Source of the DNA: a virus
Lineage: Duplodnaviria; Caudoviricetes
IMG/VR virus record: IMGVR_UViG_3300009181_000079
Span: 1-62,046 of that record
Strand: one strand, 5' to 3'
DNA: 62,046 nucleotides
Below are positions 104 to 33,362 of this stretch, piece after piece. Position numbers and translations under genes: made by a program. Positions within the stretch are counted from its first letter, which is position 1. The number at the start of each line of letters is the position of its first letter. The notes beneath the pieces are model-generated. The model saw nothing but the letters and a program-made list of their open reading frames with translations, ran no database searches and was not told where the DNA came from.

Positions 104-715
104 ATGCCGAGCCTAACCGAAATTGCAAAAGCCTGGGGCACGTCCCGCCCGTATGTGAGTAAGATGAAGAAGCAGGGATGCCCGATTCACAGTCTGTCGG
201 CGGCGACGAAGTGGAGAGAGGCTCACGCGAGCAAGAGGGTCTCGCCTTCAGCGAAGGCCCCGGTGGCGGAGAAGCCGGCAAAAGGGAAAAAGGCAGGGAG
301 GCCGCGCACTCTACCCGAGCCATCGAAGACTGGAGACTCACTGCTCGACGCGCTGAACAACGCGATCTACACGGCTGACATGGCGTATATCGCCTACAAG
401 GACGCAGTGCTCGTGGAATCGCCTACAATGGCCGCCAGGCTCTCGGAGAGCTCAAAGGCTACCCAGGTGAGGATCGTGGTGGAAAAAGCTTACAGGGAGG
501 AGCAGGAGCGCCGGGGAGTGCTGGTTCCGAAGCCAGTCATCATCGAGCGGTGCAGGAAAGGGATGGAATCGGTTTTGAGGATGCTGAACAAGTTGCCGTC
601 AGAACAAGGCCCTCAGTGTAATCCCGACAATCCCATCATGGCGATGAAGGTTCTACAGAGGAAAGTCGATGAGATCAAAATTGCCTGCCAGGCGGCGATA
701 GGAGGACTGGCGTGA
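104..715 (+). CDS. terS: terminase small subunit (Nu1-like)
   Basis: N-terminal HTH (SLTEIAKAWGTSRPYVSKM) and helical C-terminus; overlaps the start of the large terminase. Confidence 0.75.
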   Translation: MPSLTEIAKAWGTSRPYVSKMKKQGCPIHSLSAATKWREAHASKRVSPSAKAPVAEKPAKGKKAGRPRTLPEPSKTGDSLLDALNNAIYTADMAYIAYKDAVLVESPTMAARLSESSKATQVRIVVEKAYREEQERRGVLVPKPVIIERCRKGMESVLRMLNKLPSEQGPQCNPDNPIMAMKVLQRKVDEIKIACQAAIGGLA

Positions 716-2571
716 CACCGATCGCAAAACTGATTCAGGAGACATCTGACGCGATCGGGGCGCTGTGGGCTCCGATGAGCATGGAGTCGGTCTGCGAGTG
801 GATTGAGAAGAACGTCGATCTCCCCACTGGAGCAATCACAGGAAGAGCGAATCTTTCCAAAACAGCGTATGCCAGGGAAATCCTGGAGAGGTATGGAGAC
901 AAGACCACCAGGCACATCGTCATGGTGTTCGCGACCCAGTTGGGCAAAACCACGATTTTGATCTTCGGTATGCTTTTCCGAATCGCCCGGGACCCGGAGG
1001 ACGCGATGTGGGTAATGGCAAACGCAGACCAGGCCCGCGACTTCAACAAGGAACGGTTCATGGCGTTTGTCCGCCTGTGTAGGGTTGTGATGGACCTGGT
1101 GCCGAAAACCGCAAAAGGCGCAGTGGACAAGAACCTGTGGGGATTCACCGCCCAGCACTACACCAGCATGGTTTTGAACTTTGTCGGAGCGGGATCCCCG
1201 GCGAACCTGGCCTCTCGGCCCCGTGGATTCCTGCAGCTCGACGAGTGCGATAAATACTACGACCAGCTCGGATTCGACGCCGGCTCCATCCAGTTGGCTG
1301 AGGAGCGGCAGAAAACCATGTCCTTCCCGCTTTCCGTCAAGGCATCGAGCCCAACCCTCGTGGACCGGATGATCTGGCAGGAATACCTCAAGACCGACAT
1401 GCGGCAATACTGGGTGCCATGTCCCCGGTGCGACCAGAAGATTCTGCTCAAGATGCGCGTCCGGTCCGAAACTCACGGAGACTGCGGAGTTCGCTGGTGG
1501 CAGGAGCACGAGAGCGAGGCGAAGACCGATAACGAATGGGACATGAGGAAAGTGAAGGCCAACGCTTTTTACAAGTGCCAGTGCTGCGGAGGGAAGATCC
1601 ACGACTTTGAGCGGGAGGACATGATCCAGCCCGAGAACGGGGCGCTGTGGGTTCCGCAGAGCGCGAGGGCCGAAGCCGGCAGATACGGCTACCACCTCAG
1701 CTCGCTCTACTCCGTGCTCGGACCGGAAACGTCGCTCGGGAGCATTGCGGTGAAATTCCTGCTCGCCAATGGGCTCAGGTCAGAATTGCAGAACTTCGTG
1801 AATGGCTGGCTGGCGGAGCCGTGGGACGAATCCCAGGCATACGACTTCCAGGAACTCCGCTTCGAGGTGTTCACTGGAAAAGAAATCCCGCAGGACACAG
1901 TTCCAGTCATGGCGGTCGATGTGCAGGAGCTCGGCTTTTGGGTGCTCATCCGCAAGTTCCAGCGCCCAACGCCGCAGAGGCCACACGGCGAGAGCTGGCT
2001 GGTATTCGCGGACTTCGTGCAGACCGTGGAGGAGATTGTCGAACTTCAAAAGGAATACGGAGTTGCCGGCGAGAACATCACGCTCGACATGGCCCATCGT
2101 CCCAACGCAGTGGCCAGAATCATCATCGAGAACAACTGGCGCGGCATCTGGGGATCCGACACCCGCAAGTTCCAGTGGACCATCGACGGGCGCAAAGTGT
2201 GGAGACCCTACTCGGTCCCGCAGTTCCGCGATCCGATGCTCGGGACATCGTGGGAGAACAGAACCTTCAAGCGCGCGACATTCGTGTTGTTCAGCAAGCA
2301 GGGAGCGCTCGACATGGTATCCTCGCTGCGCTACGCAGAACCGGCGATCTGGCACGCATCTGCCAACGTCAATCCCGGCTACTCGGCGCACCTCAATAGC
2401 CGCATCCGAAGGCAGCAGAAAAACAAGCGCACAGGTCGCGTGGAGTGGATGTGGCATGAACTCACGCAGACGAACCATTTGGCGGACTGCGAATCGCATG
2501 TCACCATCCGCGCATTGCAGCTCGGATTGCTCGTCCTTCCCGACGAAACAGACCGCGCCAACGTGAAGTAG
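712..2571 (+). CDS. terL: terminase large subunit, lambda GpA family
   Basis: ATQLGKT Walker A, LQLDE Walker B, SSPT motif, YWVPCPRC and CQCCGG Zn sites, GYHLSSLYS, FVNGWLAEPW, AVDVQ nuclease motif, NHLADC. Confidence 0.95.
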   Translation: MTPIAKLIQETSDAIGALWAPMSMESVCEWIEKNVDLPTGAITGRANLSKTAYAREILERYGDKTTRHIVMVFATQLGKTTILIFGMLFRIARDPEDAMWVMANADQARDFNKERFMAFVRLCRVVMDLVPKTAKGAVDKNLWGFTAQHYTSMVLNFVGAGSPANLASRPRGFLQLDECDKYYDQLGFDAGSIQLAEERQKTMSFPLSVKASSPTLVDRMIWQEYLKTDMRQYWVPCPRCDQKILLKMRVRSETHGDCGVRWWQEHESEAKTDNEWDMRKVKANAFYKCQCCGGKIHDFEREDMIQPENGALWVPQSARAEAGRYGYHLSSLYSVLGPETSLGSIAVKFLLANGLRSELQNFVNGWLAEPWDESQAYDFQELRFEVFTGKEIPQDTVPVMAVDVQELGFWVLIRKFQRPTPQRPHGESWLVFADFVQTVEEIVELQKEYGVAGENITLDMAHRPNAVARIIIENNWRGIWGSDTRKFQWTIDGRKVWRPYSVPQFRDPMLGTSWENRTFKRATFVLFSKQGALDMVSSLRYAEPAIWHASANVNPGYSAHLNSRIRRQQKNKRTGRVEWMWHELTQTNHLADCESHVTIRALQLGLLVLPDETDRANVK

Positions 2572-3986: not shown

Positions 3987-5123
3987 ATGTCCACAGAAAT
4001 CACACCAATGCCGATGGCAGAAATGCAATCACTCGCCCAGGACGCCGCCAAGAGCGGAATGTTCGGGCTCCAAAACCCCAGCCAGGCAATCTGCCTCATG
4101 GCCCTGTGCCAGGCTGAGGGAATCAACCCGGTGCTCGCGCTCCGACGTTACCACCTCATTGAAGGCAAGCCATCCATGCGCGCAGATGCGATGTTAGCGG
4201 AGTTCGCGGCGCGAGGCGGAGGAGTCATCTGGCACGTCCGCAGTGACGAGATCGTAGCTGCCACCTTCTTCATCGACGCCAAGAAGATGGACGAGAAAGC
4301 CATCGAGCGCGCCCGCACCCGTGCAGCAGCTATGCTGGAGAACGACCACGCAACCGTGATGGAGAACTCCTACCCAGGAGAGGAAACCATCGTGCGAACG
4401 ATGGAGGATGCCGACAAGAAGAGAACCTCAATGCAGTGGGACAAGGATACCCGTCAGTTCAAGAAGAAGCATGTGTGGCAGGCCAACCCGCGCCAGATGC
4501 TCACAGCAAGAGTCATTACAGAAGGTGTCCGCCTCATCGCCCCGGGAGTGGTCGCCGGCATCTACGCACCCGAGGAGATCGAAGACTCCAAGGAATCCTT
4601 CCTGCAAGACGCAGGAGCCTCGCCATCGCACGATCTTGAGTCCATGCGGTCCATCCTGGCCCAGCACGAACAAAACGCGCTGGACGCCACCACAGAGCCG
4701 GAGCGCAAGAAGTATCAGGGTCTCGCGGCAGACATGCGCCAGAAGATTCAGGAGGCATGGGACAATGAGAAGCCGGCGAAGCTTGAGCAGGTCGGGCCGG
4801 AGCATGAGAAGATGGCCAAGCTGGTCAGGGCCGAGCCGCCCGACGACATCCCGGGACTCGAAAACTGTAAGCTGGTCAAGGGCAGCGAGATTCCACAGCC
4901 CCCGCCAAAGCCCACAGCAGATGCGCCGTGGCCAGAGCACATCATTACGTGCGTGAAGTCTGCTGCATACCGCGGCAAGCGTCTCGACTCTTTCAGCAAG
5001 GAGGAGATCGAAGTGCTTCATAACTCCTTCCAGAAAAAAGACCTCAAGGGAGGAAGTGAGGAGCTTAAGCACGAAGCCGCACAGCTCGCCAAGGCCCACG
5101 AACACTGGAGCAAGGTCAAATGA
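3987..5123 (+). CDS. RecT-like single-strand annealing protein
   Basis: GINPVLALRRYHLIEGKPSMRADAMLA, W..NPRQML.AR and GIYAPEE motifs. Confidence 0.7.
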   Translation: MSTEITPMPMAEMQSLAQDAAKSGMFGLQNPSQAICLMALCQAEGINPVLALRRYHLIEGKPSMRADAMLAEFAARGGGVIWHVRSDEIVAATFFIDAKKMDEKAIERARTRAAAMLENDHATVMENSYPGEETIVRTMEDADKKRTSMQWDKDTRQFKKKHVWQANPRQMLTARVITEGVRLIAPGVVAGIYAPEEIEDSKESFLQDAGASPSHDLESMRSILAQHEQNALDATTEPERKKYQGLAADMRQKIQEAWDNEKPAKLEQVGPEHEKMAKLVRAEPPDDIPGLENCKLVKGSEIPQPPPKPTADAPWPEHIITCVKSAAYRGKRLDSFSKEEIEVLHNSFQKKDLKGGSEELKHEAAQLAKAHEHWSKVK

Positions 5124-5500: not shown

Positions 5501-5850
5501 AGCTTCCGTCTCCAGCGGTCCTCAAATCCGCCATCACCATCATGCGAACGCTCGCCAACATCTTCGAGTCCATGCTCAACCAGCCACAGGAAGACCTGGT
5601 GATCGTTGATCCAGCCCCGAAGAGGAAAAGCACCCACAAGGCGACCATCGAAGAGATGCGCGCGTTCTGCAAGTCCATCGCTGTCGCAGAGTCAGACGGC
5701 GACTACTTCTTCCACAAGAACGAGGCCGAGAAATGGCCAAAGAACTGGCAGGCTAAGATCCGTTCATGGAAGTCATGCGGCTACCTCCCGAGTCAGAAGG
5801 CAGGAGTCACGCAGGCACCGAAACCAGCACCGAAGAAAGTCACGGTATGA
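5497..5850 (+). CDS. replication-initiator C-terminal-like domain protein (possible helicase loader)
   Basis: ATIEEMRAFC...DGDYFF...W.KNWQAKIRSW resembles the C-terminal domain of phage replisome organisers; directly upstream of DnaB. Confidence 0.5.
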   Translation: MKLPSPAVLKSAITIMRTLANIFESMLNQPQEDLVIVDPAPKRKSTHKATIEEMRAFCKSIAVAESDGDYFFHKNEAEKWPKNWQAKIRSWKSCGYLPSQKAGVTQAPKPAPKKVTV

Positions 5851-7133
5851 GCCAACCCATCCAGCCATTCATCCAAAAGCAGGAAGACGCAGCCATTGGC
5901 CTGATCTCCTGCATGAGGGCCGACCTTCTCCGCGCCGGGGCTCTCGCAAAGTCAGCAGGAATCACCGCTCACCACTTCGCCTCACCACTCGACACCGTGT
6001 TCGTCTGCATGATGGGCATGTGGGCCGATAGCCAGGAGTTTGACTGGCTCGATCTCATCCAGAGAATGAGAACCCACGGAAAGCTCACCCGGGACGGCGA
6101 GAAAGAGAGCCTCAAGGCCGCAATCTACGCCGACACGCTCATCCACACCGCCCCGTCTCACATCAACGCCCTCCTGGAGTGCGCAGCAGCCCGCAGGATG
6201 CACGAGATTGGCTCCAGACTCATGGCGAGAGCCTTTGACCTCTCCGAGCCCACCACGGAGCTTCTGGACGAGGTGCGCGACCAACTTTCTGGAGTGACCA
6301 CTCGACCCGTAGAGAACAAGACAGGGATCAAGGGGTTTGTTACGGAGGCGATCGCAGCCATCACCAGCAAGCTCAATGGAGATAATGAGGATCACGAAAC
6401 CATCGAACTCGGACTCGGGCTCGATCGCGCTGCTGGCCCATTCTACCGCTCAGATCTGGTGATCATCGCCGGAGAGACCAAGCGCGGCAAGTCGGCCCTC
6501 GCCGGGAACATCGTGGAGAACGTAGCCGCAGCCGGAAAAGCCGTCGCCCTGTTCTCTCTGGAGATGTCTGGTCGCCAGAACGCAGAGCGTATGCTCGCAA
6601 GCCAGGCTGGAGTGAACATCCGCAGCCTCAAGATGGACGGACCGGTGCCACGCGACATCTTCGACAAGGGACCCAGCGAATTTGAGCGCCTCACCAAGGC
6701 CGCAGCCAGAATCGCACAGTGGAACATCCAAATCTTCGAGAAGACTAAGAAGATCGACGCCATCGTGGCTGAGATGCACCGGATGAAGGCAACCACAGGT
6801 CTCGATCTCGCAGTCGTTGATTACGCCCAGCTCACCCGTGGGATCCGGAATGACGGAGACAACCGGGAGCGCGAGGTGGCCAGCATTTCCGGAATGCTCA
6901 AGGAAGCTGCCAGCGCATGTAACTGCTTGGTCATCCTTTTGAGCCAGCTCAATGAACACGGGAAGCTCCGCGAGTCACGCGCGCTCGGTCAAGACGCCAA
7001 CTGCGTGCTTGCAATCGAGGAGGATGGGAATGGTCGCAAGATCAGCGTCATCGCAGCCCGCTCCGCGCCAGGCAGCGAAATCCCGATCAAGTGGGAGCCT
7101 CAATACACACGATTCTCGGAGGTATCAGAATGA
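5847..7133 (+). CDS. dnaB: replicative DNA helicase, DnaB family
   Basis: IIAGETKRGKS Walker A, FSLEMS, VVDYAQL, LLSQLN, LRESRALGQDA; likely start ATG 5847 overlapping the upstream stop. Confidence 0.92.
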   Translation: MSQPIQPFIQKQEDAAIGLISCMRADLLRAGALAKSAGITAHHFASPLDTVFVCMMGMWADSQEFDWLDLIQRMRTHGKLTRDGEKESLKAAIYADTLIHTAPSHINALLECAAARRMHEIGSRLMARAFDLSEPTTELLDEVRDQLSGVTTRPVENKTGIKGFVTEAIAAITSKLNGDNEDHETIELGLGLDRAAGPFYRSDLVIIAGETKRGKSALAGNIVENVAAAGKAVALFSLEMSGRQNAERMLASQAGVNIRSLKMDGPVPRDIFDKGPSEFERLTKAAARIAQWNIQIFEKTKKIDAIVAEMHRMKATTGLDLAVVDYAQLTRGIRNDGDNREREVASISGMLKEAASACNCLVILLSQLNEHGKLRESRALGQDANCVLAIEEDGNGRKISVIAARSAPGSEIPIKWEPQYTRFSEVSE

Positions 7134-11305: not shown

Positions 11306-12466
11306 ATGCCGCAGTATCCAATAAAGACCGGAGGATTCGGAGAGCCAGTTATAGGTGAAATCATGCGCGGCACAAATGGTGAATCGCTCGGCGTCTATGC
11401 TGGCGGCGGAACCGTAATCCAAGACACGGGGAGCAAATCGAAACTCTTCGATCTTCCAATGGGAGTGAAGGCGAGTGAATCGCCCGCGCTGGAGCAGTGG
11501 AGGCGTGTTGATTTCGTGGCGGAGTTCAATCCGGAGGTGAGATCGGAGATGGACAGGAACGGCACCATCGTTGGGTTATCTTCGATAAAACCATACTTCT
11601 TCGAGATGCCCGACAAGATCGGAGGCGCACCGCCGCCGCCTCCTCATTGCGGCAAGTGCAATAGACCTGTCTCCAGGATCCGCGTGGTATGTGATTCATT
11701 GGGTGCCTCGATCGAAGCGAGCTGTCACGGCAGCAATGCCGGCAAATTCGTGTATGCCTCCACGTTGGTGGAGCGAGGGGCCTATGCGATCTACCTGGAG
11801 ATGCTGGAGGCATTCAGCAACAAAGGCGGATTCCAGAAGGCCGAGGACTACCGGGACTGGAAGACCAAGAAGTTCGATGACTGGAAGGCTATTGATGACC
11901 CCCGCGATAAATACAAGTTCGACCCAGAGAGGGGAAGAAAGGCATTCGAGGATGTTGCGAAGCGGGCGCAGGAGGAGATCATGAAGGATGATCGGTGGAA
12001 GATTAAGGACCCCAAGTGGAAGGAATTATCCTTCGACTCCGAGGACATCCCAGAGAAATACAACCCCGGCACAGGAATGAGGGTATTGCGGGACATTCAG
12101 GAGCAGGAGCTACTCAGGCAGTTGGGCGGACCGATATATTCCGACACCACCTCCATCTCAACCCGATACTCTCCAGACTGCTGCCTGTGCAAGAAGCCAG
12201 TGAGAGTGACTTCGCAGGAGGACTACTCCATGCGCAGGCACATCGTAAGATTCGAGTGCCACGGGCGACGGGAGGAGATCATAATAAGCGATCAGGAGCT
12301 TCTGTATAGCGGCAGATGTCTCGGTGAATTTATCGTCAAAGCCAGCCCGTTCTTGTCTGACTTCAAGAGGCTCAACATCCCGGAGGAGCCGCCGAAGCAA
12401 AAGCCAAAGACCAGAACAGGACTCGCCATCACCATCGGACAGGAAAGAATCATCAACCTCGAATGA
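11306..12466 (+). CDS. hypothetical protein with two CxxC...CHG zinc-ribbon repeats
   Basis: CGKCNRPV...SCHG and CCLCKKPV...ECHG; ends GQERIINLE. Confidence 0.65.
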   Translation: MPQYPIKTGGFGEPVIGEIMRGTNGESLGVYAGGGTVIQDTGSKSKLFDLPMGVKASESPALEQWRRVDFVAEFNPEVRSEMDRNGTIVGLSSIKPYFFEMPDKIGGAPPPPPHCGKCNRPVSRIRVVCDSLGASIEASCHGSNAGKFVYASTLVERGAYAIYLEMLEAFSNKGGFQKAEDYRDWKTKKFDDWKAIDDPRDKYKFDPERGRKAFEDVAKRAQEEIMKDDRWKIKDPKWKELSFDSEDIPEKYNPGTGMRVLRDIQEQELLRQLGGPIYSDTTSISTRYSPDCCLCKKPVRVTSQEDYSMRRHIVRFECHGRREEIIISDQELLYSGRCLGEFIVKASPFLSDFKRLNIPEEPPKQKPKTRTGLAITIGQERIINLE

Positions 12467-16632: not shown

Positions 16633-17763
16633 CTACTCCAGAACGATACTGCGGTCCCCGACATTCACCAGCAGTTTGCTGAGTGATGCCTTGACCGTCT
16701 CTACGTCTTTCTTCACGCTCTCCCTCAGCTTGGTATCTGAGGACATCGCCTTGAGGTCGATGCCTGACACAAGTTGGTCGAGCTTCTTCATCTCGGCATC
16801 CAGCTCCGTGTCGTTGCAGATGTTTCTGCGTCCGAACGTGGCCAGGAACTCCTGGATGTTGGTGACTGTCGTGGCGTAGAACTTCTTCTTCTCGCCATTA
16901 TCCTTCGGAGTCAGACTATCCGTCAGCGTGCTCACCAAGTCCGAGACCGTCTGCCGCAGGAGTAGAACCCCATTGGCCTCGATCTCTTTCCAGGTCTCTT
17001 GCGCCTTCAGCTTGGCCTTCTCGTAGATCCGAACGTCGAATTGCTTCAACTCTTCCGGCACTCCGAAGCTCAGCCACTCATAGCCGAACGTGAACCGGCC
17101 CATTAACGTCTCCACAGCCGCGTAGTCGCGTTCGTTGTAGAGCGGCCCTAGGTTGACCGCCTCCGGGGTGATCTGAGCCGGATACGAGGCAACCAGGGCC
17201 TCTACCAGCTTCCTCAGCTCAACCTCGGTCTTCTCCGCCAGCATCTCGATCTCCGGGATGCGGGTGATGTCCACGACATGAGCTGCCTGGAACTTCACAT
17301 GCGGGATACCGAACGACGCAAACTCATCACGGCGATCCTGGACGAACTTCTGAAGGGCATCGTATTCCTTGGATGCCCACAGGGTCTTGTCCCCGCCCAC
17401 TAGCGCGAGGTTCAGGCCGCCCGATTTATCCGCAATCTCGCCACTCAGGCCGAGACCGAGCTTGGCCGAGTTTTCATTGATCTCGGACTCCAGCTTCATC
17501 ACAATGGCCTTCTCAGCCTTGGTGAGCTTCTTGGTCTTCGGCAGTGACCCGGCGAAGGAAACCCTCACCACGATCCTGCCAGCCAGCTCGGCGTTGATGT
17601 CCGCCACGCTGGTCACGACCTCTTTGATGCGCTCACGGGCTACTCGCTCCGCTTCTTCCAGGTTCATCTGGGTGCATTCTGCCTGGATGTCGTTGTGCCA
17701 CATCTCATCAATGGCCTCGCCAACTTTGTAGTTCTTGCGTGCGTATTCTTGGTATTTAGTCAT
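16633..17763 (-). CDS. DUF3150-like helical protein
   Basis: LGPLYNERDY, F..RNICNDTEL; lies downstream of the AAA module; ends GDRSIVLE. Confidence 0.55.
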   Translation of the reverse strand: MTKYQEYARKNYKVGEAIDEMWHNDIQAECTQMNLEEAERVARERIKEVVTSVADINAELAGRIVVRVSFAGSLPKTKKLTKAEKAIVMKLESEINENSAKLGLGLSGEIADKSGGLNLALVGGDKTLWASKEYDALQKFVQDRRDEFASFGIPHVKFQAAHVVDITRIPEIEMLAEKTEVELRKLVEALVASYPAQITPEAVNLGPLYNERDYAAVETLMGRFTFGYEWLSFGVPEELKQFDVRIYEKAKLKAQETWKEIEANGVLLLRQTVSDLVSTLTDSLTPKDNGEKKKFYATTVTNIQEFLATFGRRNICNDTELDAEMKKLDQLVSGIDLKAMSSDTKLRESVKKDVETVKASLSKLLVNVGDRSIVLE

Positions 17764-18204: not shown

Positions 18205-18555
18205 TTATTTTGCTCCTTTATCTATCACGAAGTCGAACTCACTGGTCCAAGTAAGGGTGATTTTGGTCGCCTTATACTTGTCCGTGTTATTGTCCGACAC
18301 TTGCTTCTTGATGTTGGCTTTCCCAACATATTGACCCAGGGCTACCAGGTTCATTCCGGTGCTGCTGGTCAGCTTCCCGTCCCTGTATTCCCCGCTCTGG
18401 TATTCCCCGGTGGTCTTATCGACCCCGGAGAACGCCACTGTCTTTCCGATCACTCGGGTGGTGAACCCCATCTCTTCCAGCCCCTTGGCCAGAAGGTTGA
18501 TGTCAGGCACGTCATTGAGCGCCTGAGTGACCGATCGCGTTGCGTAGCACGGCAC
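18205..18555 (-). CDS. DUF1257 (Ycf35)-like protein
   Basis: MPC...DINLLAKGLEEMGF...LGQY; follows the Ycf46-like ATPase. Confidence 0.5.
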   Translation of the reverse strand: MPCYATRSVTQALNDVPDINLLAKGLEEMGFTTRVIGKTVAFSGVDKTTGEYQSGEYRDGKLTSSTGMNLVALGQYVGKANIKKQVSDNNTDKYKATKITLTWTSEFDFVIDKGAK

Positions 18556-18702: not shown

Positions 18703-20220
18703 TTAGTTATTCCCGGCGCCCTTGATGGCCATTTTCCGGATGCTTGCTATATCCAGGGTCTTCTTCGTGGTGAAGTATCCCGGATAGTTCACGGAGAGGT
18801 ATTTACCGTCAGCCTCTTTCCGCATCTTGTCCAGCCCGTCACCCATGGATGCAACCACAGGACTGATGAACTGGGCCGCCTCGGTGAGCGGGATACCGAA
18901 CTCCCACGCAATCTCCGAGCAGCGCTCTATCTCTGCGCCCGTCCAGCCATTACAGACAGGCAGCTCGCCAGTGACTCCGAACTTGTTCATGTAGAAGTCC
19001 CAGATTGGTTTCTGCTGAGCTTCCGTGAGAACATCGAAGAAGAAGATGGTGCCGAAGCGTCTCTTCATCTGCGGAGCGATGTCCTCCATGCTGTTCGTGG
19101 TGCCGATGAACAGCACCCGGTTCCCGAAGCGATTCCAGAGCGTCCCTACGGCCGCCCTGATCATTCGCTCGGAGTCCGACACGATGCCACCCTTCATCTC
19201 GCCCTGGTCCCAGTTGATGAACATGGCCTTACACGCATCGGCGATTGCACCGCCGAGCTGAGTCTTGCCTGTCCCTGCGACACCGTTGAAGATGCCGCCG
19301 CGCCAGCCATAGTTCTGCATGGCACCAAGCATGACCGACCGAGCATCACGGTTGATGCCGTTCGAGTCACCCTGACCTGCGGACTGGTCGCCCATCTCAT
19401 CAATGAGCACCACAGCCAGCGGGCACAGTTTGCCGCCAGCCTTCATCCTGCCCCACTTCTTGCCCTGCTCCAGGCCGGCAAGTTGGTCGAGGGTCATCTT
19501 GTTCTCAATGACGCTCAAGCCTGCCGTGGCGTTGACCGCCGCGATAGACCCGCTCCTCAAGATATTGATGTTGAAGCCGCTCTTGCTTGCTGCTGCGGAG
19601 CATAACTGCTCAACACCAAACGAACTCAGACCTCGAAGGGTATCCGATACCTCGGACAGATCCTCCTTGGATGGCTCCCCGATCTTCGATGCCCGCGCAA
19701 TGTTTTTGGCGATCTGGATGCGTTCCTCGTCACCTGGGGGTGGCGATACGATCACCTCGAAGTCATTCCCGATCTCCGCGTTCGCTACGAACTTCGGACA
19801 CAGGAATACCAAGTGCCTGTTGCTCGACTTGAACTCATCCCGACAGTTGCGGATGCACTGGATATACAGCGCCCGAACCGTCTCATCCCTGTGTTGCAAC
19901 AGCAGATGGATGTCGTCAATCACCAGGATCGACTTCGGGGGCAGCAGGTCGAGCGCTCTCTGTAAGCACTCTTCCAACTTCGCCGTGGTCAGTGCCGGCT
20001 CTTTGTCGCTGTTCATGACGCCAGAGGCCAGCGCCCCCGCGTCATTGATTCCGATCGCACCACGAGCCATATCGTGATGCAGAAGGGCCATCCCATTCGC
20101 TTTCTCCTTGATCCCATCATTGATGTCAGACAGCGTGTATTGGTAGTTGTCTGTCTCTACAACGATGAACGGGAAGGCCCGACTCACACGCTGTAGGAGC
20201 GTTTCGATGTGTTTCTTCAT
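18703..20220 (-). CDS. AAA+ ATPase, Ycf46-like, with rearranged motif order
   Basis: degenerate N-terminal AAA domain; VVLIDE, GVAGTGKT, VLFIGTTN, RRF..IFFFD, GWTGAEIE. Confidence 0.85.
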   Translation of the reverse strand: MKKHIETLLQRVSRAFPFIVVETDNYQYTLSDINDGIKEKANGMALLHHDMARGAIGINDAGALASGVMNSDKEPALTTAKLEECLQRALDLLPPKSILVIDDIHLLLQHRDETVRALYIQCIRNCRDEFKSSNRHLVFLCPKFVANAEIGNDFEVIVSPPPGDEERIQIAKNIARASKIGEPSKEDLSEVSDTLRGLSSFGVEQLCSAAASKSGFNINILRSGSIAAVNATAGLSVIENKMTLDQLAGLEQGKKWGRMKAGGKLCPLAVVLIDEMGDQSAGQGDSNGINRDARSVMLGAMQNYGWRGGIFNGVAGTGKTQLGGAIADACKAMFINWDQGEMKGGIVSDSERMIRAAVGTLWNRFGNRVLFIGTTNSMEDIAPQMKRRFGTIFFFDVLTEAQQKPIWDFYMNKFGVTGELPVCNGWTGAEIERCSEIAWEFGIPLTEAAQFISPVVASMGDGLDKMRKEADGKYLSVNYPGYFTTKKTLDIASIRKMAIKGAGNN

Positions 20221-20357: not shown

Positions 20358-20762
20358 TTATTTCTCCTTTTTCACTGTCTCAGCGAGCTTGTTCAAAAAG
20401 CTCATAACTCTTCTCCGGCCCTTCCAGCGCTCAGCGTTGGGAGAGGGCCACACTTCCTTTAACGACTCCATATACTCCTTGCTCGCCATTGGGATAGGCG
20501 CGCAGATGTGATCCAAGAACATCAGGTGGTAGGCTCTCACGAGTCCCTTCCCATCTGGCCCCGGAACCACATAGTCATTGGTATGCGGGCAGTTGATCGG
20601 GCAGTATCCGCAGTCGTCATCAATGAAGTGAACGTGCAGATCATCCGGCCCTTCCTGCCAGCAATGACTTACCGGGATTCTGATCCCGCAGTCATCCAAG
20701 CCCCGGTTGGTGTGCTTCCAGGCATAGCCCGAGCCCCTCCGGAATAGGATTTCGAGGAACAT
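20358..20762 (-). CDS. hypothetical protein
   Basis: coupled ORF, Cys/His-rich. Confidence 0.5.
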   Translation of the reverse strand: MFLEILFRRGSGYAWKHTNRGLDDCGIRIPVSHCWQEGPDDLHVHFIDDDCGYCPINCPHTNDYVVPGPDGKGLVRAYHLMFLDHICAPIPMASKEYMESLKEVWPSPNAERWKGRRRVMSFLNKLAETVKKEK

Positions 20763-21364
20763 CAGTATGATTCCTCTAACGAGAGATCTCCGATAAACAC
20801 ACCGTCCACCGTCAGGTGAATCATCAGCTCCTCGTCCCGCCAGGCGCCATTGCAGCAGGTCATCGCGCATCTCACGTTGGTCATGGCGTCTGCGTAGTTC
20901 GATCCGCCGTAGCAGACCTCGCCAGCATACACGCCACCATTGACCTTGGCCGCGGCGTAGTCTTTGTATTGGCTTGCCCTCCAGAACTCGATGTCGAACC
21001 TCTCGACCGACATCCAGCTTGTAACAGGCGATCTCCCTGCTGCCACATGGGCGTCCGAGATCTTCTCAAGCAGCGTCTTTGGCTCCAGGGATTCCTGAAT
21101 GTAGTCATCCAGTCCCGGGATAGTGAAGTCGCCAACCACGCCCTCTTCCCCGCAAGTGTTGCACTTGCAGAACGAGGTAGCGTCCCACGAATGATCTCCA
21201 GTATCATCCGTGGTCATATCGGTCATGGTGCATATCCCAGTGAACTCGACGCGGAAGTTATTCCGCTCCCCACATGCAGAGCACGCAATGTTATTGCAAA
21301 TGTTCTTCATGATGGGCGAGTTCCTGAACGTCAGCACGAACTCCTCTTTGGTTATTTTCTTCAT
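20762..21364 (-). CDS. hypothetical Zn-ribbon protein
   Basis: CSACG...CNTCG. Confidence 0.6.
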   Translation of the reverse strand: MKKITKEEFVLTFRNSPIMKNICNNIACSACGERNNFRVEFTGICTMTDMTTDDTGDHSWDATSFCKCNTCGEEGVVGDFTIPGLDDYIQESLEPKTLLEKISDAHVAAGRSPVTSWMSVERFDIEFWRASQYKDYAAAKVNGGVYAGEVCYGGSNYADAMTNVRCAMTCCNGAWRDEELMIHLTVDGVFIGDLSLEESY

Positions 21365-21712: not shown

Positions 21713-22696
21713 TTACTCCAACACTATCGCCCTGTCCCCAGTATTCTGAGCGGGCTTCATTCTCTCCTGGATGGCAGCAAGCTCTTCAGCCTTGCTCTCC
21801 AAATCCCAGTTCTCGCGTTGCAGGTCGGAGATTCTCTCCTCCGACTCCTTCTTGGCGAACGTCAGTCGCAGCTTCAGCACGACTGCCAGCAGATCAATGC
21901 GATCAACCAGCAATTCGTCATTGTAGCCGAACGAGTAGAGGCTCGTCCGCATTTTCTCTGGCAGGCCGCCGAGATTCCATGGGTTTTGCTTCACCCACTT
22001 GGCATACTCCTCGCCGCGCCCAATGGCGCTTGCGATGTCGGCAGCCCGCTGTCTCTCCCGCTCAGCTTGCTCATGTGCTCTGCGTGCATCGGTAGCAGCG
22101 TTGATCTTCGCCTCATAGGCTTCAAGGATCTCCGTGTTCCGATGCCGGTTCGCTTCCTCGCCCACGATGATCTTCTCGATCTTCGCAGATGGCAGTTTGA
22201 ACCACTTGCAGGCCTCCAGCGCCTCAGGAAGGTGCCGGTAGCGGTGTAGGTATTCCCGGGCGATAATCCCCGCCCTGGTGCCCTTCCTGTGCCCAGGAAC
22301 GACCCTCCACTCATCGAGGTGGTATTCCCTCAGCGACTCCGGAGTGACATGGAGCGATTGCCCACGACCGCCGAAGTCCACATGAAAGACCTTGACCTTG
22401 GCACGCTTCAGGGCGTTCTCTACCTCCCTGCGGTGCCCCGGCGTGACCGTGGAACCAAAGTTATTGATGTCCACAACACAGCACCGGGTTTTTCCCTTCC
22501 CGATGAACCTCGCGATGGTAGTCCGATAGGAGAGGAACTGCTCCCCAGTGAACCCCATCCTGCTCTTCCTGTGGCGACCATCCGGCGCAGATTGCTCTGC
22601 GAAGGCTTTCACCATCTCATGCTCCGACTTGAAGTGCTTGTAGCCCTTCGAGATCGGAGTGTCGCTCAATGAGCCATACATCCCGCTGAATCCCAT
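21713..22696 (-). CDS. hypothetical protein
   Basis: long ORF with RBS; SYRTTIARF; ends GDRAIVLE. Confidence 0.7.
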   Translation of the reverse strand: MGFSGMYGSLSDTPISKGYKHFKSEHEMVKAFAEQSAPDGRHRKSRMGFTGEQFLSYRTTIARFIGKGKTRCCVVDINNFGSTVTPGHRREVENALKRAKVKVFHVDFGGRGQSLHVTPESLREYHLDEWRVVPGHRKGTRAGIIAREYLHRYRHLPEALEACKWFKLPSAKIEKIIVGEEANRHRNTEILEAYEAKINAATDARRAHEQAERERQRAADIASAIGRGEEYAKWVKQNPWNLGGLPEKMRTSLYSFGYNDELLVDRIDLLAVVLKLRLTFAKKESEERISDLQRENWDLESKAEELAAIQERMKPAQNTGDRAIVLE

Positions 22697-31266: not shown

Positions 31267-31527
31267 ATGGCCTACGCCGACCATCTCCTATCCTACCGAT
31301 CCGAATCATCTGAAGACCTCATAGCAGAGAAGGCCGCACTCAAGGCACAGCGCACGATCTACTCAGCACAGGGGATGGGCACAAAATCCATGCAACGGGA
31401 TCTGCGTCTTCTGGAGGAGAGGTTGCAGGCTATCAACTTTGTCTTGAGGGAGAGAAACCCTCCTGTCATCGTGCCGCCTGTGACTAACTTTGGCGTAGGA
31501 ATCTCTGACTTCAGCACCGTCCGATGA
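31267..31527 (+). CDS. head-to-tail joining protein (gpW-like position)
   Basis: small helical/beta-hairpin protein immediately before a lambda-family portal. Confidence 0.55.
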   Translation: MAYADHLLSYRSESSEDLIAEKAALKAQRTIYSAQGMGTKSMQRDLRLLEERLQAINFVLRERNPPVIVPPVTNFGVGISDFSTVR

Positions 31528-33362
31528 GCGACAATTTGATCAAGCTCTATGATGGTCGGGGGAATGTCGTCACTGAATTTCACCCCAAGTTCAACGATGT
31601 CCGCAGGGAGATCCAATTCGGCGCGCAGTATAACCCCGCCCCTGAGAGAAGGGGCTCAAGTGGCGGAATCTATGGCAACGCGGCTCCCGAGACATGGGCT
31701 CGCAATCGGGATAGGCTTCAGTCCATGTGGGACGCGAGAGATCAATGTCAATTTAGTTGGGTTGGCGGTATGCTCGGTCGCGTCTGCCGCTACGTGGTAG
31801 GCAGGCTTCACTGCAAGTCTGAGACTCAAGACCCGCAAATTGACGCAGCCTACGACGACTACTTCCACTCCTGGTGTGGAGACGAACGGAACGAGGACGG
31901 CACAACCAACTGCGACATCACGGGCAGGGCAAGGTTCCTCAAGATGGTTCAACAGGCTTTCCTTGCTCACCTTATTGACGGCGACCATGGCTTTATCGAG
32001 GTAGCTCCAGAGTTCTCACCAACCGGAAGATACTGCCTTCAAGCAATCGAGGCGGACTGCATCGGATCCCCGAATGAACAGACTACTTTTGAGGACTATA
32101 TCGGAGGCGTGAAGATTGATGTCAATACGGGCCGGGTTCTCTACTATCGAATCTTCAAGCGCACACGCACACAGCAATATGTGAAGCTCGCAGAGGTGGA
32201 GCCAGCGAACTTCATTCATCTCAATGACTTTGACCGCTCGGGGGAATACCGGGGCCGCACCAAGCTCCTGCGCGCCCTGAACGATCTCCGAGACATCCGT
32301 GAAGCACTCACAGCCGAGATGGTCAGCGCCAAGACTCAGGCCCAGTGGTCAGCACTCATCGGAGTCAAGGACCCGTTCTCCAACCAAGGCCCGGCGGCCT
32401 GGTCGGGAAAGACCGCAGACGGCACCCCAACTCAAGACGCACAGTGGGGCAAGATTCTAAAGATGGCAGAGGGCGAGCAGTTCCAGATGCTCACCCCTTC
32501 CGCCCGTCCTTCAGGTGCTTTCATGAACCTGATTGACACCCTGATTCGCAAGCTGGCCATCAGCCTGGAACTCAGCTACGGTATGGTGTGGAACCTCGCC
32601 ACCCTCGGCGGAGCCAGCCAGCGCATCGAGACAGAAGCCGACAATCTCAAGATTCAGACCTGGCAGGATCTCCTGAAGGACTACATCCTCACACGGGTCC
32701 GGAACAAAGTCATCGCGGAAGGCATCGCCACTCAGATGCTACCACCTCATCCAGCATGGAAGAGGCACTCTTGGAGATTTGGTAAGCAGATCACCGCAGA
32801 CTTGGGCTACGAGATGGAAAGCGACCTGAAGGCCGTAGGCGCCGGCATTGCCGAGATCGAGCATGTGGTGGCCAAGCACACCGGAAAGAGCTTCAGCGAG
32901 GTCTGTGCGAGCAACACGGCGGCAGCCAATACAGCTATCAACAACGCATCGCAGGCCGGCATCCCCGTCGAAGTCACAGCCCGCGGAATGTTCCCGGACA
33001 TCACAGCCCAGCGCGCGAACTTCCTGCAAAGCCAGGCGCCACCTCCACCACCCGCAAGCCCCGTCAGCATCGGCGTCCTCGGGGACAAGGGCATCAAGCC
33101 TCTCATCGACATCATGGAGAAAGTCGGAGACGGAACGATCGACAGGGAATCCGCCATCAACGCCATCATCGAAATCTACAGCCAGCCAGGCAACGAGCTC
33201 TCCCGCCAGGACGCGGAGAAGCTCATACCAGAGGAGCCGGAAGAGGAAGACCTCAATCGGTCGGCGGGGCTCACACCTGAAGGCAAGCACGCGCCAGTGG
33301 TCGCAGGTCCGAAGCCCAGCAGCAACGGCAGTAAGCCCAAGACGAACGGAGCACGCAAATGA
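31524..33362 (+). CDS. portal protein, lambda family
   Basis: CDITGR..F, IDGDHG, LQAIEADCI, GGVKID..GR...Y.I, IHL.DFDR.GEYRG. Confidence 0.9.
   Translation: MSDNLIKLYDGRGNVVTEFHPKFNDVRREIQFGAQYNPAPERRGSSGGIYGNAAPETWARNRDRLQSMWDARDQCQFSWVGGMLGRVCRYVVGRLHCKSETQDPQIDAAYDDYFHSWCGDERNEDGTTNCDITGRARFLKMVQQAFLAHLIDGDHGFIEVAPEFSPTGRYCLQAIEADCIGSPNEQTTFEDYIGGVKIDVNTGRVLYYRIFKRTRTQQYVKLAEVEPANFIHLNDFDRSGEYRGRTKLLRALNDLRDIREALTAEMVSAKTQAQWSALIGVKDPFSNQGPAAWSGKTADGTPTQDAQWGKILKMAEGEQFQMLTPSARPSGAFMNLIDTLIRKLAISLELSYGMVWNLATLGGASQRIETEADNLKIQTWQDLLKDYILTRVRNKVIAEGIATQMLPPHPAWKRHSWRFGKQITADLGYEMESDLKAVGAGIAEIEHVVAKHTGKSFSEVCASNTAAANTAINNASQAGIPVEVTARGMFPDITAQRANFLQSQAPPPPPASPVSIGVLGDKGIKPLIDIMEKVGDGTIDRESAINAIIEIYSQPGNELSRQDAEKLIPEEPEEEDLNRSAGLTPEGKHAPVVAGPKPSSNGSKPKTNGARK

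What the first reader, a model, noticed from the sequence alone, without database searches (positions are those of the whole stretch)
18703..20220. AAA+ ATPase with Walker B placed before Walker A
Seen: the order is LAVVLIDEMGDQSAGQGDSNG...MLGAMQ (Walker B strand plus following helix), then GGIFNGVAGTGKT (Walker A), then FINWD.GEMKGGIVSDSERMIR, then directly VLFIGTTN (sensor 1) and RRF (Arg finger). No hhhhDE lies between Walker A and sensor 1. Established: canonical AAA+ proteins, including Ycf46, run Walker A, pore loop, Walker B, sensor 1. Inference: two beta-alpha units have swapped places while all catalytic motifs are kept, which would be a rare topological permutation of the P-loop core.
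Basis: partly seen in the sequence, partly recalled or inferred. Interest (0 to 1): 0.75.

Follow-up and report, generated by a model that had tools for sequence, protein, structure and literature searches.

The report
Phage AAA+ ATPase with reordered core
A phage ATPase of a very well-studied enzyme class has the piece carrying its catalytic acid residues moved in front of the piece that binds ATP, and this rearranged form is conserved in well over a hundred phages and prophages, so it is a natural rewiring of the fold and not an error.

Summary
ORF 18703..20220 (-) encodes a 505-aa two-domain AAA+ protein. In its active domain the order is Walker B VVLIDE (270-275), Walker A GVAGTGKT (313-320), sensor-1 N376, then R387/R388.

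All 45 closest protein clusters, 81 of 81 viral loci (including cultured Tunturiibacter phage Tunturi_3 gp103) and 14 bacterial-genome loci share this order. More distant relatives have the usual order.

A profile built from the usual-order relatives matches the permuted proteins in four pieces whose middle two are swapped. D274, E275, K319, T320, N376 and R388 are invariant in 43 of 43 aligned sequences.

On trees built without the moved columns, the permuted proteins form one side of a single branch (SH-aLRT 100). No intermediates were seen. Both forms lie upstream of the same DUF1257-like and DUF3150 genes, so they are counterparts within one module.

The AlphaFold2 model is confident (pLDDT 86.5) and has five strands. 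Covariation places the moved strand beside β2 and β4 and its helix beside α2.

Five literature searches found no AAA+ protein with this order. Verdict: a real non-circular permutation of the AAA+ core, a new variant of a known kind. The module's biological role is unknown.

The parts
18703..20220 (-). Whole gene, 505 aa plus stop: two-domain AAA+ protein (P0001)
   Evidence: ORF list and translation. 59 homologs found. AF2 model has pLDDT 86.5.
19501..20220 (-). Domain 1 (residues 1-240): degenerate AAA-like domain without a P-loop, strands in the usual order, followed by a lid-like helical part
   Evidence: The full model aligns to p97/Cdc48 D1-D2 over model residues 1..474 (Z 17.4, 400 aligned, rmsd 4.6). 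No GxxGxGK[ST] occurs before residue 313. Residues 161-251 match the lid of Msp1.
19306..19425 (-). Moved block B (residues 266-305): β3 strand 269-273 with Walker B VVLIDE, a flexible loop (pore-loop-2 region, pLDDT 59 over 281-290) and helix 289-304
   Evidence: Matches positions 308-349 of the usual-order profile, but lies before the Walker A piece. D274 and E275 are invariant in 43 of 43 sequences. Secondary structure. Translation checked.
19396..19413 (-). Walker B motif VVLIDE (residues 270-275)
19123..19305 (-). Block A (residues 306-366): β1, P-loop, α1, β2, pore-loop-1 region (KGGIV) and α2
   Evidence: Matches positions 245-308 of the usual-order profile. Secondary structure E307-313, H319-329, E333-337, H347-365.
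19261..19284 (-). Walker A GVAGTGKT (residues 313-320)
   Evidence: G313, G316, G318, K319 and T320 are invariant in 43 of 43 sequences. Translation checked.
19093..19116 (-). β4 with sensor-1 N376 (VLFIGTTN, residues 369-376). It follows α2 after a 3-residue linker, with no strand in between.
   Evidence: N376 is invariant. Secondary structure. In the alignment the permuted clade has a gap of about 42 columns here, where usual-order relatives carry Walker B.
19057..19062 (-). Arginine pair R387-R388 (arginine fingers of the classic AAA clade)
   Evidence: R388 is invariant and R387 is conserved in at least 90% of sequences.
18766..19032 (-). Helical lid (residues 397-485) with the family motif WTGAEI
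   Evidence: W426, G428 and E430 are invariant; T427 and A429 are conserved in at least 90% of sequences. Helices listed.
18205..18555 (-). Next gene downstream, 116 aa: divergent DUF1257-like protein (homology by transitivity only)
   Evidence: phmmer gives 3e-10 to 5e-7 to ORFs in L003-L006 and L073. Those ORFs hit an iterated HMM seeded on L203:6157-6576 (Pfam DUF1257, 4.3e-5) at 1e-13 to 1e-8. The window ORF itself does not hit that HMM.
16633..17763 (-). Conserved partner gene, 376 aa: DUF3150-family protein
   Evidence: BLASTP hits in 71 of 81 loci. 12 of 37 aligned homologs hit Pfam DUF3150 (best 1.5e-11); the window protein itself does not. Found downstream on the same strand in 75 of 81 distinct permuted viral loci and 35 of 72 usual-order loci.

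Best explanation
The gene encodes a two-domain AAA+ ATPase of the classic clade. It is a phage early-region protein.

The active second domain carries a natural non-circular permutation. The β3-α3 unit (Walker B, pore-loop-2 region and α3) has been moved from its usual place between α2 and β4 to a place between the N-terminal linker helix and β1.

Most likely the three-dimensional fold is unchanged, with strand order 5-1-4-3-2 and the Walker B carboxylates D274/E275 next to the P-loop. Only three loops would be re-routed: α0 to β3, α3 to β1, and α2 to β4. All three re-routings keep right-handed crossovers, so the fold can accept them (inference from the known AAA+ topology).

The enzyme should therefore still bind and hydrolyse ATP in a ring, with R387/R388 acting on the neighbouring subunit.

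The rearrangement arose once in an ancestor that already belonged to a three-gene module (AAA+, DUF1257-like, DUF3150) carried by phages and other mobile elements. The simplest route is tandem duplication of the β1-to-α3 segment followed by loss of the first β1-α2 copy and the last β3-α3 copy (inferred; no intermediate was seen).

Shown here: the sequence order, its conservation, its single origin and the shared gene neighbourhood. Inferred: the 3D placement of the block, ATPase activity, ring formation and the mechanism of origin. The cellular target is unknown. My guess, at low confidence, is an early-infection or establishment remodelling function together with DUF3150 and DUF1257.
For: 1. 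Order. The alignment of 26 homologs shows a block of about 42 residues before Walker A in the permuted clade, with a matching gap before sensor 1. Usual-order relatives show the reverse.

2. Profile test. An HMM of 12 usual-order relatives hits the permuted proteins in four pieces, ordered as profile positions 7-235, 308-348, 246-308 and 351-480. The same piece order holds in 81 of 81 viral loci and in 14 genome loci. Walker-B-piece i-E values reach 1.4e-12.

3. Selection. D274, E275, G313, G316, G318, K319, T320, N376 and R388 are invariant in 43 of 43 sequences that go down to 26% identity.

4. Independent sources. These include a cultured phage genome (PP885686.1 gp103), IMG/VR contigs and MAGs or chromosomes titled as Chthonomonas, Gemmatimonadetes, Acidobacteriota, Krumholzibacteriia, Pseudomonadota, Planctomycetes, Abditibacterium and Nitrospira.

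5. Structure.
- The AF2 model has pLDDT 86.5 and pTM 0.75.
- Domain 2 has exactly five strands: 269-273, 307-313, 333-337, 369-375 and 391-395. The linkers are 2-3 residues long at α3 to β1 and at α2 to β4.
- Domain 2 superposes on Vps4 (Z 15.0, rmsd 3.0, 209 aligned within model residues 231..478), spastin and p97-D2. About 39 residues stay unaligned, which is the size of the moved block.

6. Covariation in 138 permuted sequences (Meff 87).
- The moved strand covaries most with β2 (top-3 mean 0.196; 4 of 56 cells above the 99th percentile), then with β4, and least with β5.
- Order 5-1-4-3-2 ranks 2nd of 60 possible strand orders.
- The moved helix couples most strongly with α2.
- The top pair overall links D278, just after Walker B, to Q384, and G277/D278 link to T375 next to sensor 1.
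- The strongest inter-block pair with a valid mapping to profile positions, A300-W362, is also at the 100th percentile at the homologous positions in 112 usual-order sequences. L272-F334 is at the 98th percentile.

7. Single origin.
- With the moved columns removed, the permuted rows form one side of one branch.
- FastTree: 103 permuted against 73 usual-order rows, support 88.
- IQ-TREE: 43 against 30 rows, SH-aLRT 100.

8. Same module. DUF3150 lies downstream on the same strand in 75 of 81 distinct permuted viral loci, 35 of 72 usual-order viral loci, 12 of 14 permuted genome loci and 25 of 31 usual-order genome loci.
Against: - No coordinates were available, so the distance between D274/E275 and K319/T320 was not measured and no order-independent superposition was done.
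- P0001's own Walker-B piece is weak against the usual-order profile (about 0 bits, i-E 0.67).
- The covariation evidence is thin. Meff is 87 and 57, plain MI with APC was used, and relatedness was not controlled.
- The best-scoring strand order was 3-2-1-4-5, not 5-1-4-3-2.
- The β3-β4 signal is modest (1 of 72 cells above the 99th percentile).
- Agreement with the usual-order set is weak overall (Spearman 0.043, p 0.009; Mann-Whitney p 0.046). Most of the top permuted pairs sit near the 50th percentile in the usual-order set.
- The pore-loop-1 position lacks the usual aromatic residue (GIV in place of the K-[FY]-V-G I recall for classic AAA; F or Y in some usual-order relatives).
- No intermediate form supports the duplication-deletion route: 0 of 72 usual-order viral ORFs had an extra Walker-B piece.
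- No biochemical data exist.
Confidence: 0.8

Rival explanations
1. Domain 2 is a pseudo-ATPase, or an ATPase with a different catalytic acid. On this view the upstream VVLIDE strand is a structural element of the inter-domain linker that does not reach the nucleotide site, and the true Walker B was simply lost.
For: The position of the strand in 3D was not measured. P0001's Walker-B piece barely scores against the usual-order profile. The pore-loop-1 aromatic residue is missing. Domain 1 of the same protein shows that this family tolerates a dead AAA module.
Against: D274 and E275 are invariant in 43 of 43 sequences, together with K319, T320, N376 and R388. That pattern is not expected for a dead site. 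In relatives the block is recognisably homologous to the usual Walker B-α3 block, including the DS.G motif after DE (i-E down to 1.4e-12). α2 runs straight into β4, so the sheet would have a missing central strand unless 269-273 fills it. Covariation links the strand to β2 and β4, and the residues after DE to T375.
Confidence: 0.1
2. The upstream block is not a relocated copy. On this view it is a β-α unit that arose independently (convergence) and replaced a lost β3-α3.
For: No intermediate with two Walker B blocks was found. The junctions are clean, with no relic sequence.
Against: Similarity to profile positions 308-349 extends over about 40 residues, beyond the hhhhDE core, in 81 of 81 loci. 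The block has the same length and the same strand-loop-helix layout. The homologous α3-α2 and β3-β2 couplings are also seen in usual-order relatives.
Confidence: 0.05
3. Assembly or gene-calling artefact in this one contig.
For: None was found. The window is a metagenomic viral record.
Against: The same order occurs in P0002 (95% identity, another source), in 80 further IMG/VR contigs and one GenBank phage genome, and in 14 bacterial-genome loci. The frame is open and continuous.
Confidence: 0.01

Closest known systems
Usual-order two-domain AAA ATPases of phages and bacteria (P0046-P0058, for example 'AAA family ATPase' of Sphingorhabdus sp. and 'AAA ATPase central domain protein' of Planctopirus limnophila; loosely 'SpoVK/Ycf46/Vps4 family')
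   Same: They share the degenerate N-terminal domain, the lid with WTGAEI, the DS.G motif after Walker B and the RR pair. They are 20-27% identical over the full length. They have the same downstream DUF1257-like and DUF3150 genes.
   Different: Their order is Walker A, Walker B, sensor 1. In the window's clade the Walker B-α3 block lies before Walker A. I did not compare with a bona fide plastid or cyanobacterial Ycf46.
Classic-clade AAA proteins with solved structures: p97/Cdc48/Rix7/Drg1 (tandem), and Vps4, spastin, fidgetin-like 1 (single domain)
   Same: The overall two-domain fold matches p97-class proteins (Foldseek E 5.7e-13; VIA Z 17.4). Domain 2 matches Vps4, FIGL1, spastin and p97-D2 at Z about 14-15 with rmsd 2.5-3.3 over about 200-216 residues. 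Sequence matches cover the Walker A region and the sensor-1 region.
   Different: Chain connectivity of the core differs. Domain 1 has no P-loop. There are no N-terminal MIT or Cdc48-N-type domains.
Circularly permuted GTPases (YlqF/RbgA, YjeQ/RsgA class); recalled, and seen only as a search listing of PMC6912228 and of bioRxiv 10.1101/2020.05.19.104984
   Same: They are natural reorderings of nucleotide-binding motifs within a P-loop NTPase domain that stays active.
   Different: They are circular permutations in the GTPase (TRAFAC) class. Here an internal block swap leaves both chain ends in place, and it occurs in the ASCE/AAA+ class.
Non-circular permutation of the HK97 fold in the Bordetella phage BPP-1 capsid protein (PMC3863775; abstract start in the search listing only)
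   Same: It is a precedent for a phage protein keeping a fold while sequence segments change order non-circularly.
   Different: It is a structural protein, not an enzyme active site.

Membership tests
AAA+ ATPase, classic clade (Pfam PF00004) | Profile match above the curated cut-off | tested here: met
   56.2 bits against a cut-off of 21.2, but split into 3 stretches; the best stretch covers only residues 311-358.
AAA+ ATPase, classic clade (Pfam PF00004) | Walker A GxxGxGK[ST] | tested here: met
   GVAGTGKT at 313-320; G313, G316, G318, K319 and T320 are invariant in 43 of 43 sequences.
AAA+ ATPase, classic clade (Pfam PF00004) | Walker B hhhhDE | tested here: met
   VVLIDE at 270-275; D274 and E275 are invariant.
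AAA+ ATPase, classic clade (Pfam PF00004) | Linear order Walker A, then Walker B, then sensor 1 | tested here: not met
   The order is Walker B (270), Walker A (313), sensor 1 (376).
AAA+ ATPase, classic clade (Pfam PF00004) | Sensor-1 polar residue at the end of β4 and arginine finger(s) in the second region of homology | tested here: met
   N376 and R388 are invariant; R387 is conserved in at least 90% of sequences.
AAA+ ATPase, classic clade (Pfam PF00004) | αβα core with sheet order 5-1-4-3-2 plus a helical lid | tested here: inconclusive
   The model has five strands and a lid. Z is 14-15 to Vps4, spastin and p97-D2. Covariation ranks 5-1-4-3-2 second of 60 orders. No coordinates were available to read the sheet order directly.
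AAA+ ATPase, classic clade (Pfam PF00004) | Aromatic-hydrophobic-Gly pore loop 1 (motif recalled) | tested here: not met
   P0001 has K-G-G-I-V-S at 343-348. Some usual-order relatives have K-F-V-G or K-Y-Q-G.
AAA+ ATPase, classic clade (Pfam PF00004) | ATP hydrolysis and ring assembly | not testable with these tools
   This needs biochemistry.
Ycf46 (plastid/cyanobacterial) | Orthology to a bona fide Ycf46 | not tested
   Only a source label, 'SpoVK/Ycf46/Vps4 family', on P0009. No Ycf46-specific model hit in NCBIfam.
AAA+/DUF1257/DUF3150 three-gene module (defined here, not a curated family) | DUF3150 gene downstream on the same strand | tested here: met
   Window gene 16633..17763 (-). It aligns with homologs of which 12 of 37 hit PF11348. 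The HMM finds such a gene in 75 of 81 distinct permuted viral loci.
AAA+/DUF1257/DUF3150 three-gene module (defined here, not a curated family) | DUF1257-like gene between the two | tested here: inconclusive
   Window ORF 18205..18555 (-) is linked only by transitivity. Pfam gave no hit at E 0.01.

The most novel reading that the evidence does not exclude
This would be the first natural AAA+ family in which the catalytic core is permuted non-circularly, with Walker B/β3-α3 placed before the P-loop, while the enzyme stays active. It arose once and is now spread through phages and prophages of many bacterial phyla, beside an orthologous usual-order sister group in the same gene module.

That would give a matched natural pair for asking how much chain connectivity (α2 to β3, α3 to β4) matters for coupling the ATP site to the pore loops. 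It would also show that the ASCE core tolerates internal block swaps that linear profile methods miss.
Probability: 0.6. Interest if true: 0.8.

Novelty: new variant of a known kind. Interest (0 to 1): 0.72.

Why it matters
AAA+ motors are among the best-studied molecular machines. Their mechanism is described in terms of a fixed chain path: P-loop, pore loop 1, Walker B, pore loop 2, sensor 1.

A conserved family in which that path is rewired, with a usual-order sister family in the same genomic module, is a ready-made natural experiment on allosteric coupling and on how folds evolve.

It also has a practical side. Linear profiles (Pfam, NCBIfam) recognise only fragments of these proteins. 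Permuted enzymes of this kind are therefore under-annotated: the cultured phage's copy is labelled only 'ATPase'.

The biological role of the AAA+/DUF1257/DUF3150 module in phages and mobile elements is unknown and worth testing.

Tried and rejected
**Structure and binding**
- Homo-oligomer prediction of domain 2 (3 copies of residues 238-485 with ATP and Mg) gave 'no answer', score 0.01. No interface was given, so I draw nothing from it.
- I looked for model coordinates in the script box and found none. The direct distance test and an order-independent superposition were therefore not possible.
- The DUF3150 partner folds confidently (pLDDT 88.2). Foldseek against the PDB gave no match at E <= 0.001 (best 0.18). 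The wide VIA search gave only generic helical-bundle rows (Z <= 9.1, covering mainly residues 238-370). A profile search of PDB sequences gave one row at E 0.11. No function can be read from these.

**Neighbours and family libraries**
- PHROGs and Pfam on neighbouring ORFs gave almost nothing.
- PADLOC gave only weak IetA-type AAA similarity (P0001 at 0.0011). This reflects shared AAA ancestry and is not evidence of a defence role.
- The 327-aa ORF 21713..22696 is not a DUF3150 paralog. Only the last 10 residues match.

**Origin of the rearrangement**
- I asked whether introns found in usual-order relatives could explain the rearrangement. The group I intron in L091 splits Walker B between D and E. 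That point lies inside the moved block and not at its boundary, so I dropped the idea.
- I looked for intermediates carrying two Walker B blocks. None was found among 72 usual-order viral ORFs.

**Literature**
- Five searches and passages of four papers gave no AAA+ protein with Walker B before Walker A.
- Subscription journals are mostly outside the library. Supplements were not consulted.

The family's total size in that library is therefore unknown.
Full report
**What is there.** The window is an IMG/VR virus record of 62,046 bases, estimated 89% complete. PHROGs recognise a terminase large subunit (712..2571), a RecT-like protein (3987..5123), a DnaB-like helicase (5766..7133), a portal (31524..33362) and a major head protein (43483..44505). 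The finding lies in a minus-strand block of mostly unrecognisable genes. ORF 18703..20220 (-) is open and encodes 505 residues, P0001.

**The motif order.**
- VVLIDE at residues 270-275
- GVAGTGKT at 313-320
- VLFIGTTN, ending in N376, at 369-376
- RR at 387-388

No second hhhhDE lies between Walker A and sensor 1. Linear profiles see the protein only in fragments. Pfam AAA passes its cut-off (56.2 against 21.2 bits) but in three stretches. NCBIfam models cover only residues 307-360, whereas they cover about 180 residues in relatives with the usual order. Matches to PDB sequences are likewise broken into a Walker A piece and a sensor-1 piece.

**Is the order real and conserved?**
- The homolog search returned 59 proteins.
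- In an alignment of 26 of them, every sequence down to about 26% identity has a block of about 42 residues before Walker A and a gap of the same size between α2 and sensor 1. That block holds a proline, the hhhhDE strand, a loop with a DS.G motif and a helix.
- The more distant sequences, including named proteins of Planctopirus limnophila and Sphingorhabdus sp., have the gap before Walker A and the block after α2.
- An alignment of 43 full-length members of the near group keeps D274, E275, G313, G316, G318, K319, T320, N376 and R388 invariant. The two fragments P0012 and P0035 show the same order by motif.
- The only GenBank phage with a homolog, Tunturiibacter phage Tunturi_3 (gp103, labelled 'ATPase'), also has Walker B before Walker A.

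**A test that does not depend on a multiple alignment.**
- I built an HMM from 12 usual-order relatives and searched the near group with it. Each protein is hit in four pieces, in the order of profile positions 7-235, 308-348, 246-308 and 351-480. That is a clean swap of the two middle blocks.
- For P0001 itself the Walker-B piece is weak (about 0 bits, i-E 0.67). In relatives it reaches i-E 1e-5 to 1e-12.
- A scan of viral contigs found 201 stretches encoding relatives, of which 80 were fetched. All 80, plus the Tunturi_3 locus, show the swapped piece order (81 of 81).
- A second scan seeded with usual-order sequences fetched 79 loci. They comprised 72 usual-order genes, 4 interrupted genes and 3 permuted genes, the last three lying on contigs already fetched.
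- A scan of bacterial and archaeal genomes gave 14 permuted loci, in MAGs or chromosomes titled Chthonomonas, Gemmatimonadetes, Acidobacteriota, Krumholzibacteriia, Pseudomonadota, Planctomycetes, Abditibacterium, Nitrospira and others.
- The same scan gave 31 usual-order loci, for example in Singulisphaera and Desulfobacterales.

**Structure.**
- AlphaFold2 on the 43-sequence alignment gave pLDDT 86.5 and pTM 0.75.
- Domain 2 reads, in order:
  - helix 251-262
  - strand 269-273 (Walker B)
  - short helix 276-281
  - a flexible loop (pLDDT 59 for residues 281-290)
  - helix 289-304
  - strand 307-313
  - P-loop
  - helix 319-329
  - strand 333-337
  - short helix 339-342
  - helix 347-365
  - strand 369-375
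  - helix 383-389
  - strand 391-395
  - lid helices
- That makes five strands, as in a normal AAA+ core. The linkers are only 2-3 residues long at helix 289-304 to β1 and at α2 to β4.
- The whole model resembles tandem AAA proteins: Foldseek E 5.7e-13 to p97, and VIA Z 17.4 with 400 residues aligned at rmsd 4.6 over model residues 1..474. Domain 1 is therefore an AAA-like domain without a P-loop.
- Domain 2 alone matches Vps4 (Z 15.0, rmsd 3.0, 209 aligned within 231..478), fidgetin-like 1, spastin and p97-D2.
- About 39 residues of that range stay unaligned, which is the size of the moved block. This is what a sequence-order-bound aligner would give if everything else sits in its normal place.
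- The tools expose no coordinates. I could not read the sheet order or measure how far the Walker B acids lie from the P-loop. This is the main gap in the case.

**Covariation as a substitute.**
- I used 138 permuted sequences (effective number 87) and computed APC-corrected mutual information over residues 240-400.
- The top pair overall is D278-Q384. G277 and D278, directly after the Walker B acids, also pair with T375, next to sensor-1 N376.
- A300-W362 is second overall. L272-F334 (moved strand with β2) and V271-F371 (moved strand with β4) are in the top 40.
- By strand pair, the moved strand couples best with β2 (4 of 56 cells above the 99th percentile), then with β4 (1 of 72), and least with β5.
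- The canonical order 5-1-4-3-2 ranks second of 60 possible orders. The order 3-2-1-4-5 ranked first.
- The moved helix couples most strongly with α2.
- I mapped residues to profile positions and repeated the calculation on 112 usual-order sequences (effective number 57).
  - A300-W362 is again at the 100th percentile.
  - L272-F334 is at the 98th, D292-G340 at the 98th and V271-F371 at the 90th percentile.
  - Most other top pairs sit near the median.
  - Overall agreement is weak (Spearman 0.043, p 0.009; Mann-Whitney p 0.046).
- I read this as modest evidence, independent of AlphaFold, that the block keeps its normal neighbours. It is not proof.

**Origin.**
- I removed the moved columns from the alignment before building trees.
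- FastTree on 176 rows puts the 103 permuted and 73 usual-order proteins on either side of one branch (support 88, one change). Rows under 430 aa and rows at least 85% identical to a kept row had been left out.
- IQ-TREE (LG+G4, quick search) was run on 73 rows thinned to under 50% identity, without the long-branch rows P0053, P0059 and P0060. It gives the same split with SH-aLRT 100.
- All other AAA+ proteins I know of have the usual order, so the permuted state is the derived one, and it arose once.
- No protein with an extra Walker B piece was seen among the 72 usual-order viral genes. The junctions carry no relic sequence.
- The duplication-deletion route is therefore an inference from how permutations are generally thought to arise.

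**Context and function.**
- The 376-aa gene downstream (16633..17763, -) has BLASTP hits in 71 of 81 loci, nearly always downstream on the same strand.
- 12 of 37 aligned homologs hit Pfam DUF3150 (best 1.5e-11), though the window protein itself does not.
- An HMM of this family finds a copy near the ATPase in these fractions of loci:
  - 75 of 81 distinct permuted viral loci (78 of 84 before removing three repeated contigs)
  - 35 of 72 usual-order viral loci
  - 3 of 4 interrupted viral loci
  - 12 of 14 permuted genome loci
  - 25 of 31 usual-order genome loci
- Between the two genes many loci carry a small DUF1257-like gene. An iterated HMM seeded on the Desulfosarcina copy (Pfam DUF1257, 4.3e-5) finds one in 170 of 212 loci.
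- The window's 116-aa ORF (18205..18555, -) is linked to that family only through its close homologs.
- In the Desulfosarcina variabilis chromosome the usual-order module sits among an ArdC-N protein, a RadC-like JAB protein, a MerR regulator and a VIT-vWA protein. This is the kind of company kept by mobile-element establishment genes (my reading).
- The permuted and usual-order ATPases are thus counterparts within one conserved module. This is the strongest argument that the permuted enzyme still works.
- What the module does is not known. DUF3150 has a confident model but no informative structural match, and the library holds one paper that even mentions it.

**Comparison with what is known.**
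- The closest relatives are the usual-order two-domain ATPases of the same module.
- The closest solved structures are classic-clade AAA proteins.
- The closest precedents for the phenomenon are the circularly permuted GTPases (recalled; seen only as search listings). Another is the non-circular permutation of the HK97 fold in phage BPP-1 (abstract start in the search listing).
- Five full-text searches and passages of four papers turned up no AAA+ protein with Walker B ahead of Walker A.
- The library lacks most subscription journals, so this is absence in those searches and not proof of novelty.

**Verdict.** This is a real, conserved, singly derived, non-circular permutation of the AAA+ core in a phage and mobile-element ATPase. 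It is a new variant of a known kind. The 3D placement of the moved block is probable but not directly shown, and the biological role is open.

Noticed in passing
window 11306..12466 (+), 16633..17763 (-), 21713..22696 (-); loci L001-L212: Three otherwise unrelated window proteins end in the same C-terminal tail...GQERIINLE...GDRSIVLE and ...GDRAIVLE. Across the fetched loci the tail R-x-[IVLMF]-x-[LFMIV]-[EDN]1-5 at the C-terminus occurs in 63 of 159 DUF3150 proteins, 25 of 195 ATPases and 26 of 4210 other co-oriented ORFs. It occurs in 2 of 4154 antisense ORFs and 77 of 67400 random pseudo-termini. It may be a shared docking or recognition peptide of the module.
   Followed up: partly
L091 6954..7741 (also L092-L094): Usual-order relatives on four viral contigs have the ATPase gene interrupted inside the Walker B codons, between D and E. 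In L091 the interruption is a group I intron (Rfam RF00028, 72.2 bits, E 3.7e-18) carrying an ORF with an HNH-like motif.
   Followed up: partly
L206 2364..4902 (also L204, L207, L210; one Thermodesulfobacteriota MAG): The usual-order ATPase gene is split by about 2.5 kb. The insert holds a 620-aa ORF and ends in a group II intron domain (RF00029, 73.4 bits). Several copies occur in the same genome.
   Followed up: partly
L001 9693..10652 (PP885686.1, gp96): The Tunturi_3 gene annotated 'HNH endonuclease' matches the DUF3150 partner HMM at 6.9e-85 and sits in the partner position. The annotation is probably wrong.
   Followed up: partly
L203 3412..11108 (Desulfosarcina variabilis chromosome): The usual-order module lies in this gene run: ArdC-N, DUF7204, AAA, DUF1257, DUF3150, RadC-like JAB, MerR, VIT-vWA. 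This suggests a mobile-element establishment or anti-restriction neighbourhood.
   Followed up: no
window 16633..17763 (-): The DUF3150 partner folds confidently (pLDDT 88.2) into long helices plus a small sheet. It has no informative match among solved structures (Foldseek best E 0.18; VIA Z <= 9.1, generic bundles).
   Followed up: yes
window 20358..20870 (-) and 20762..21364 (-): Two minus-strand ORFs just upstream of the ATPase overlap by about 110 bases. Both have BLAST hits in one or two related loci. Which start sites are real was not examined.
   Followed up: no
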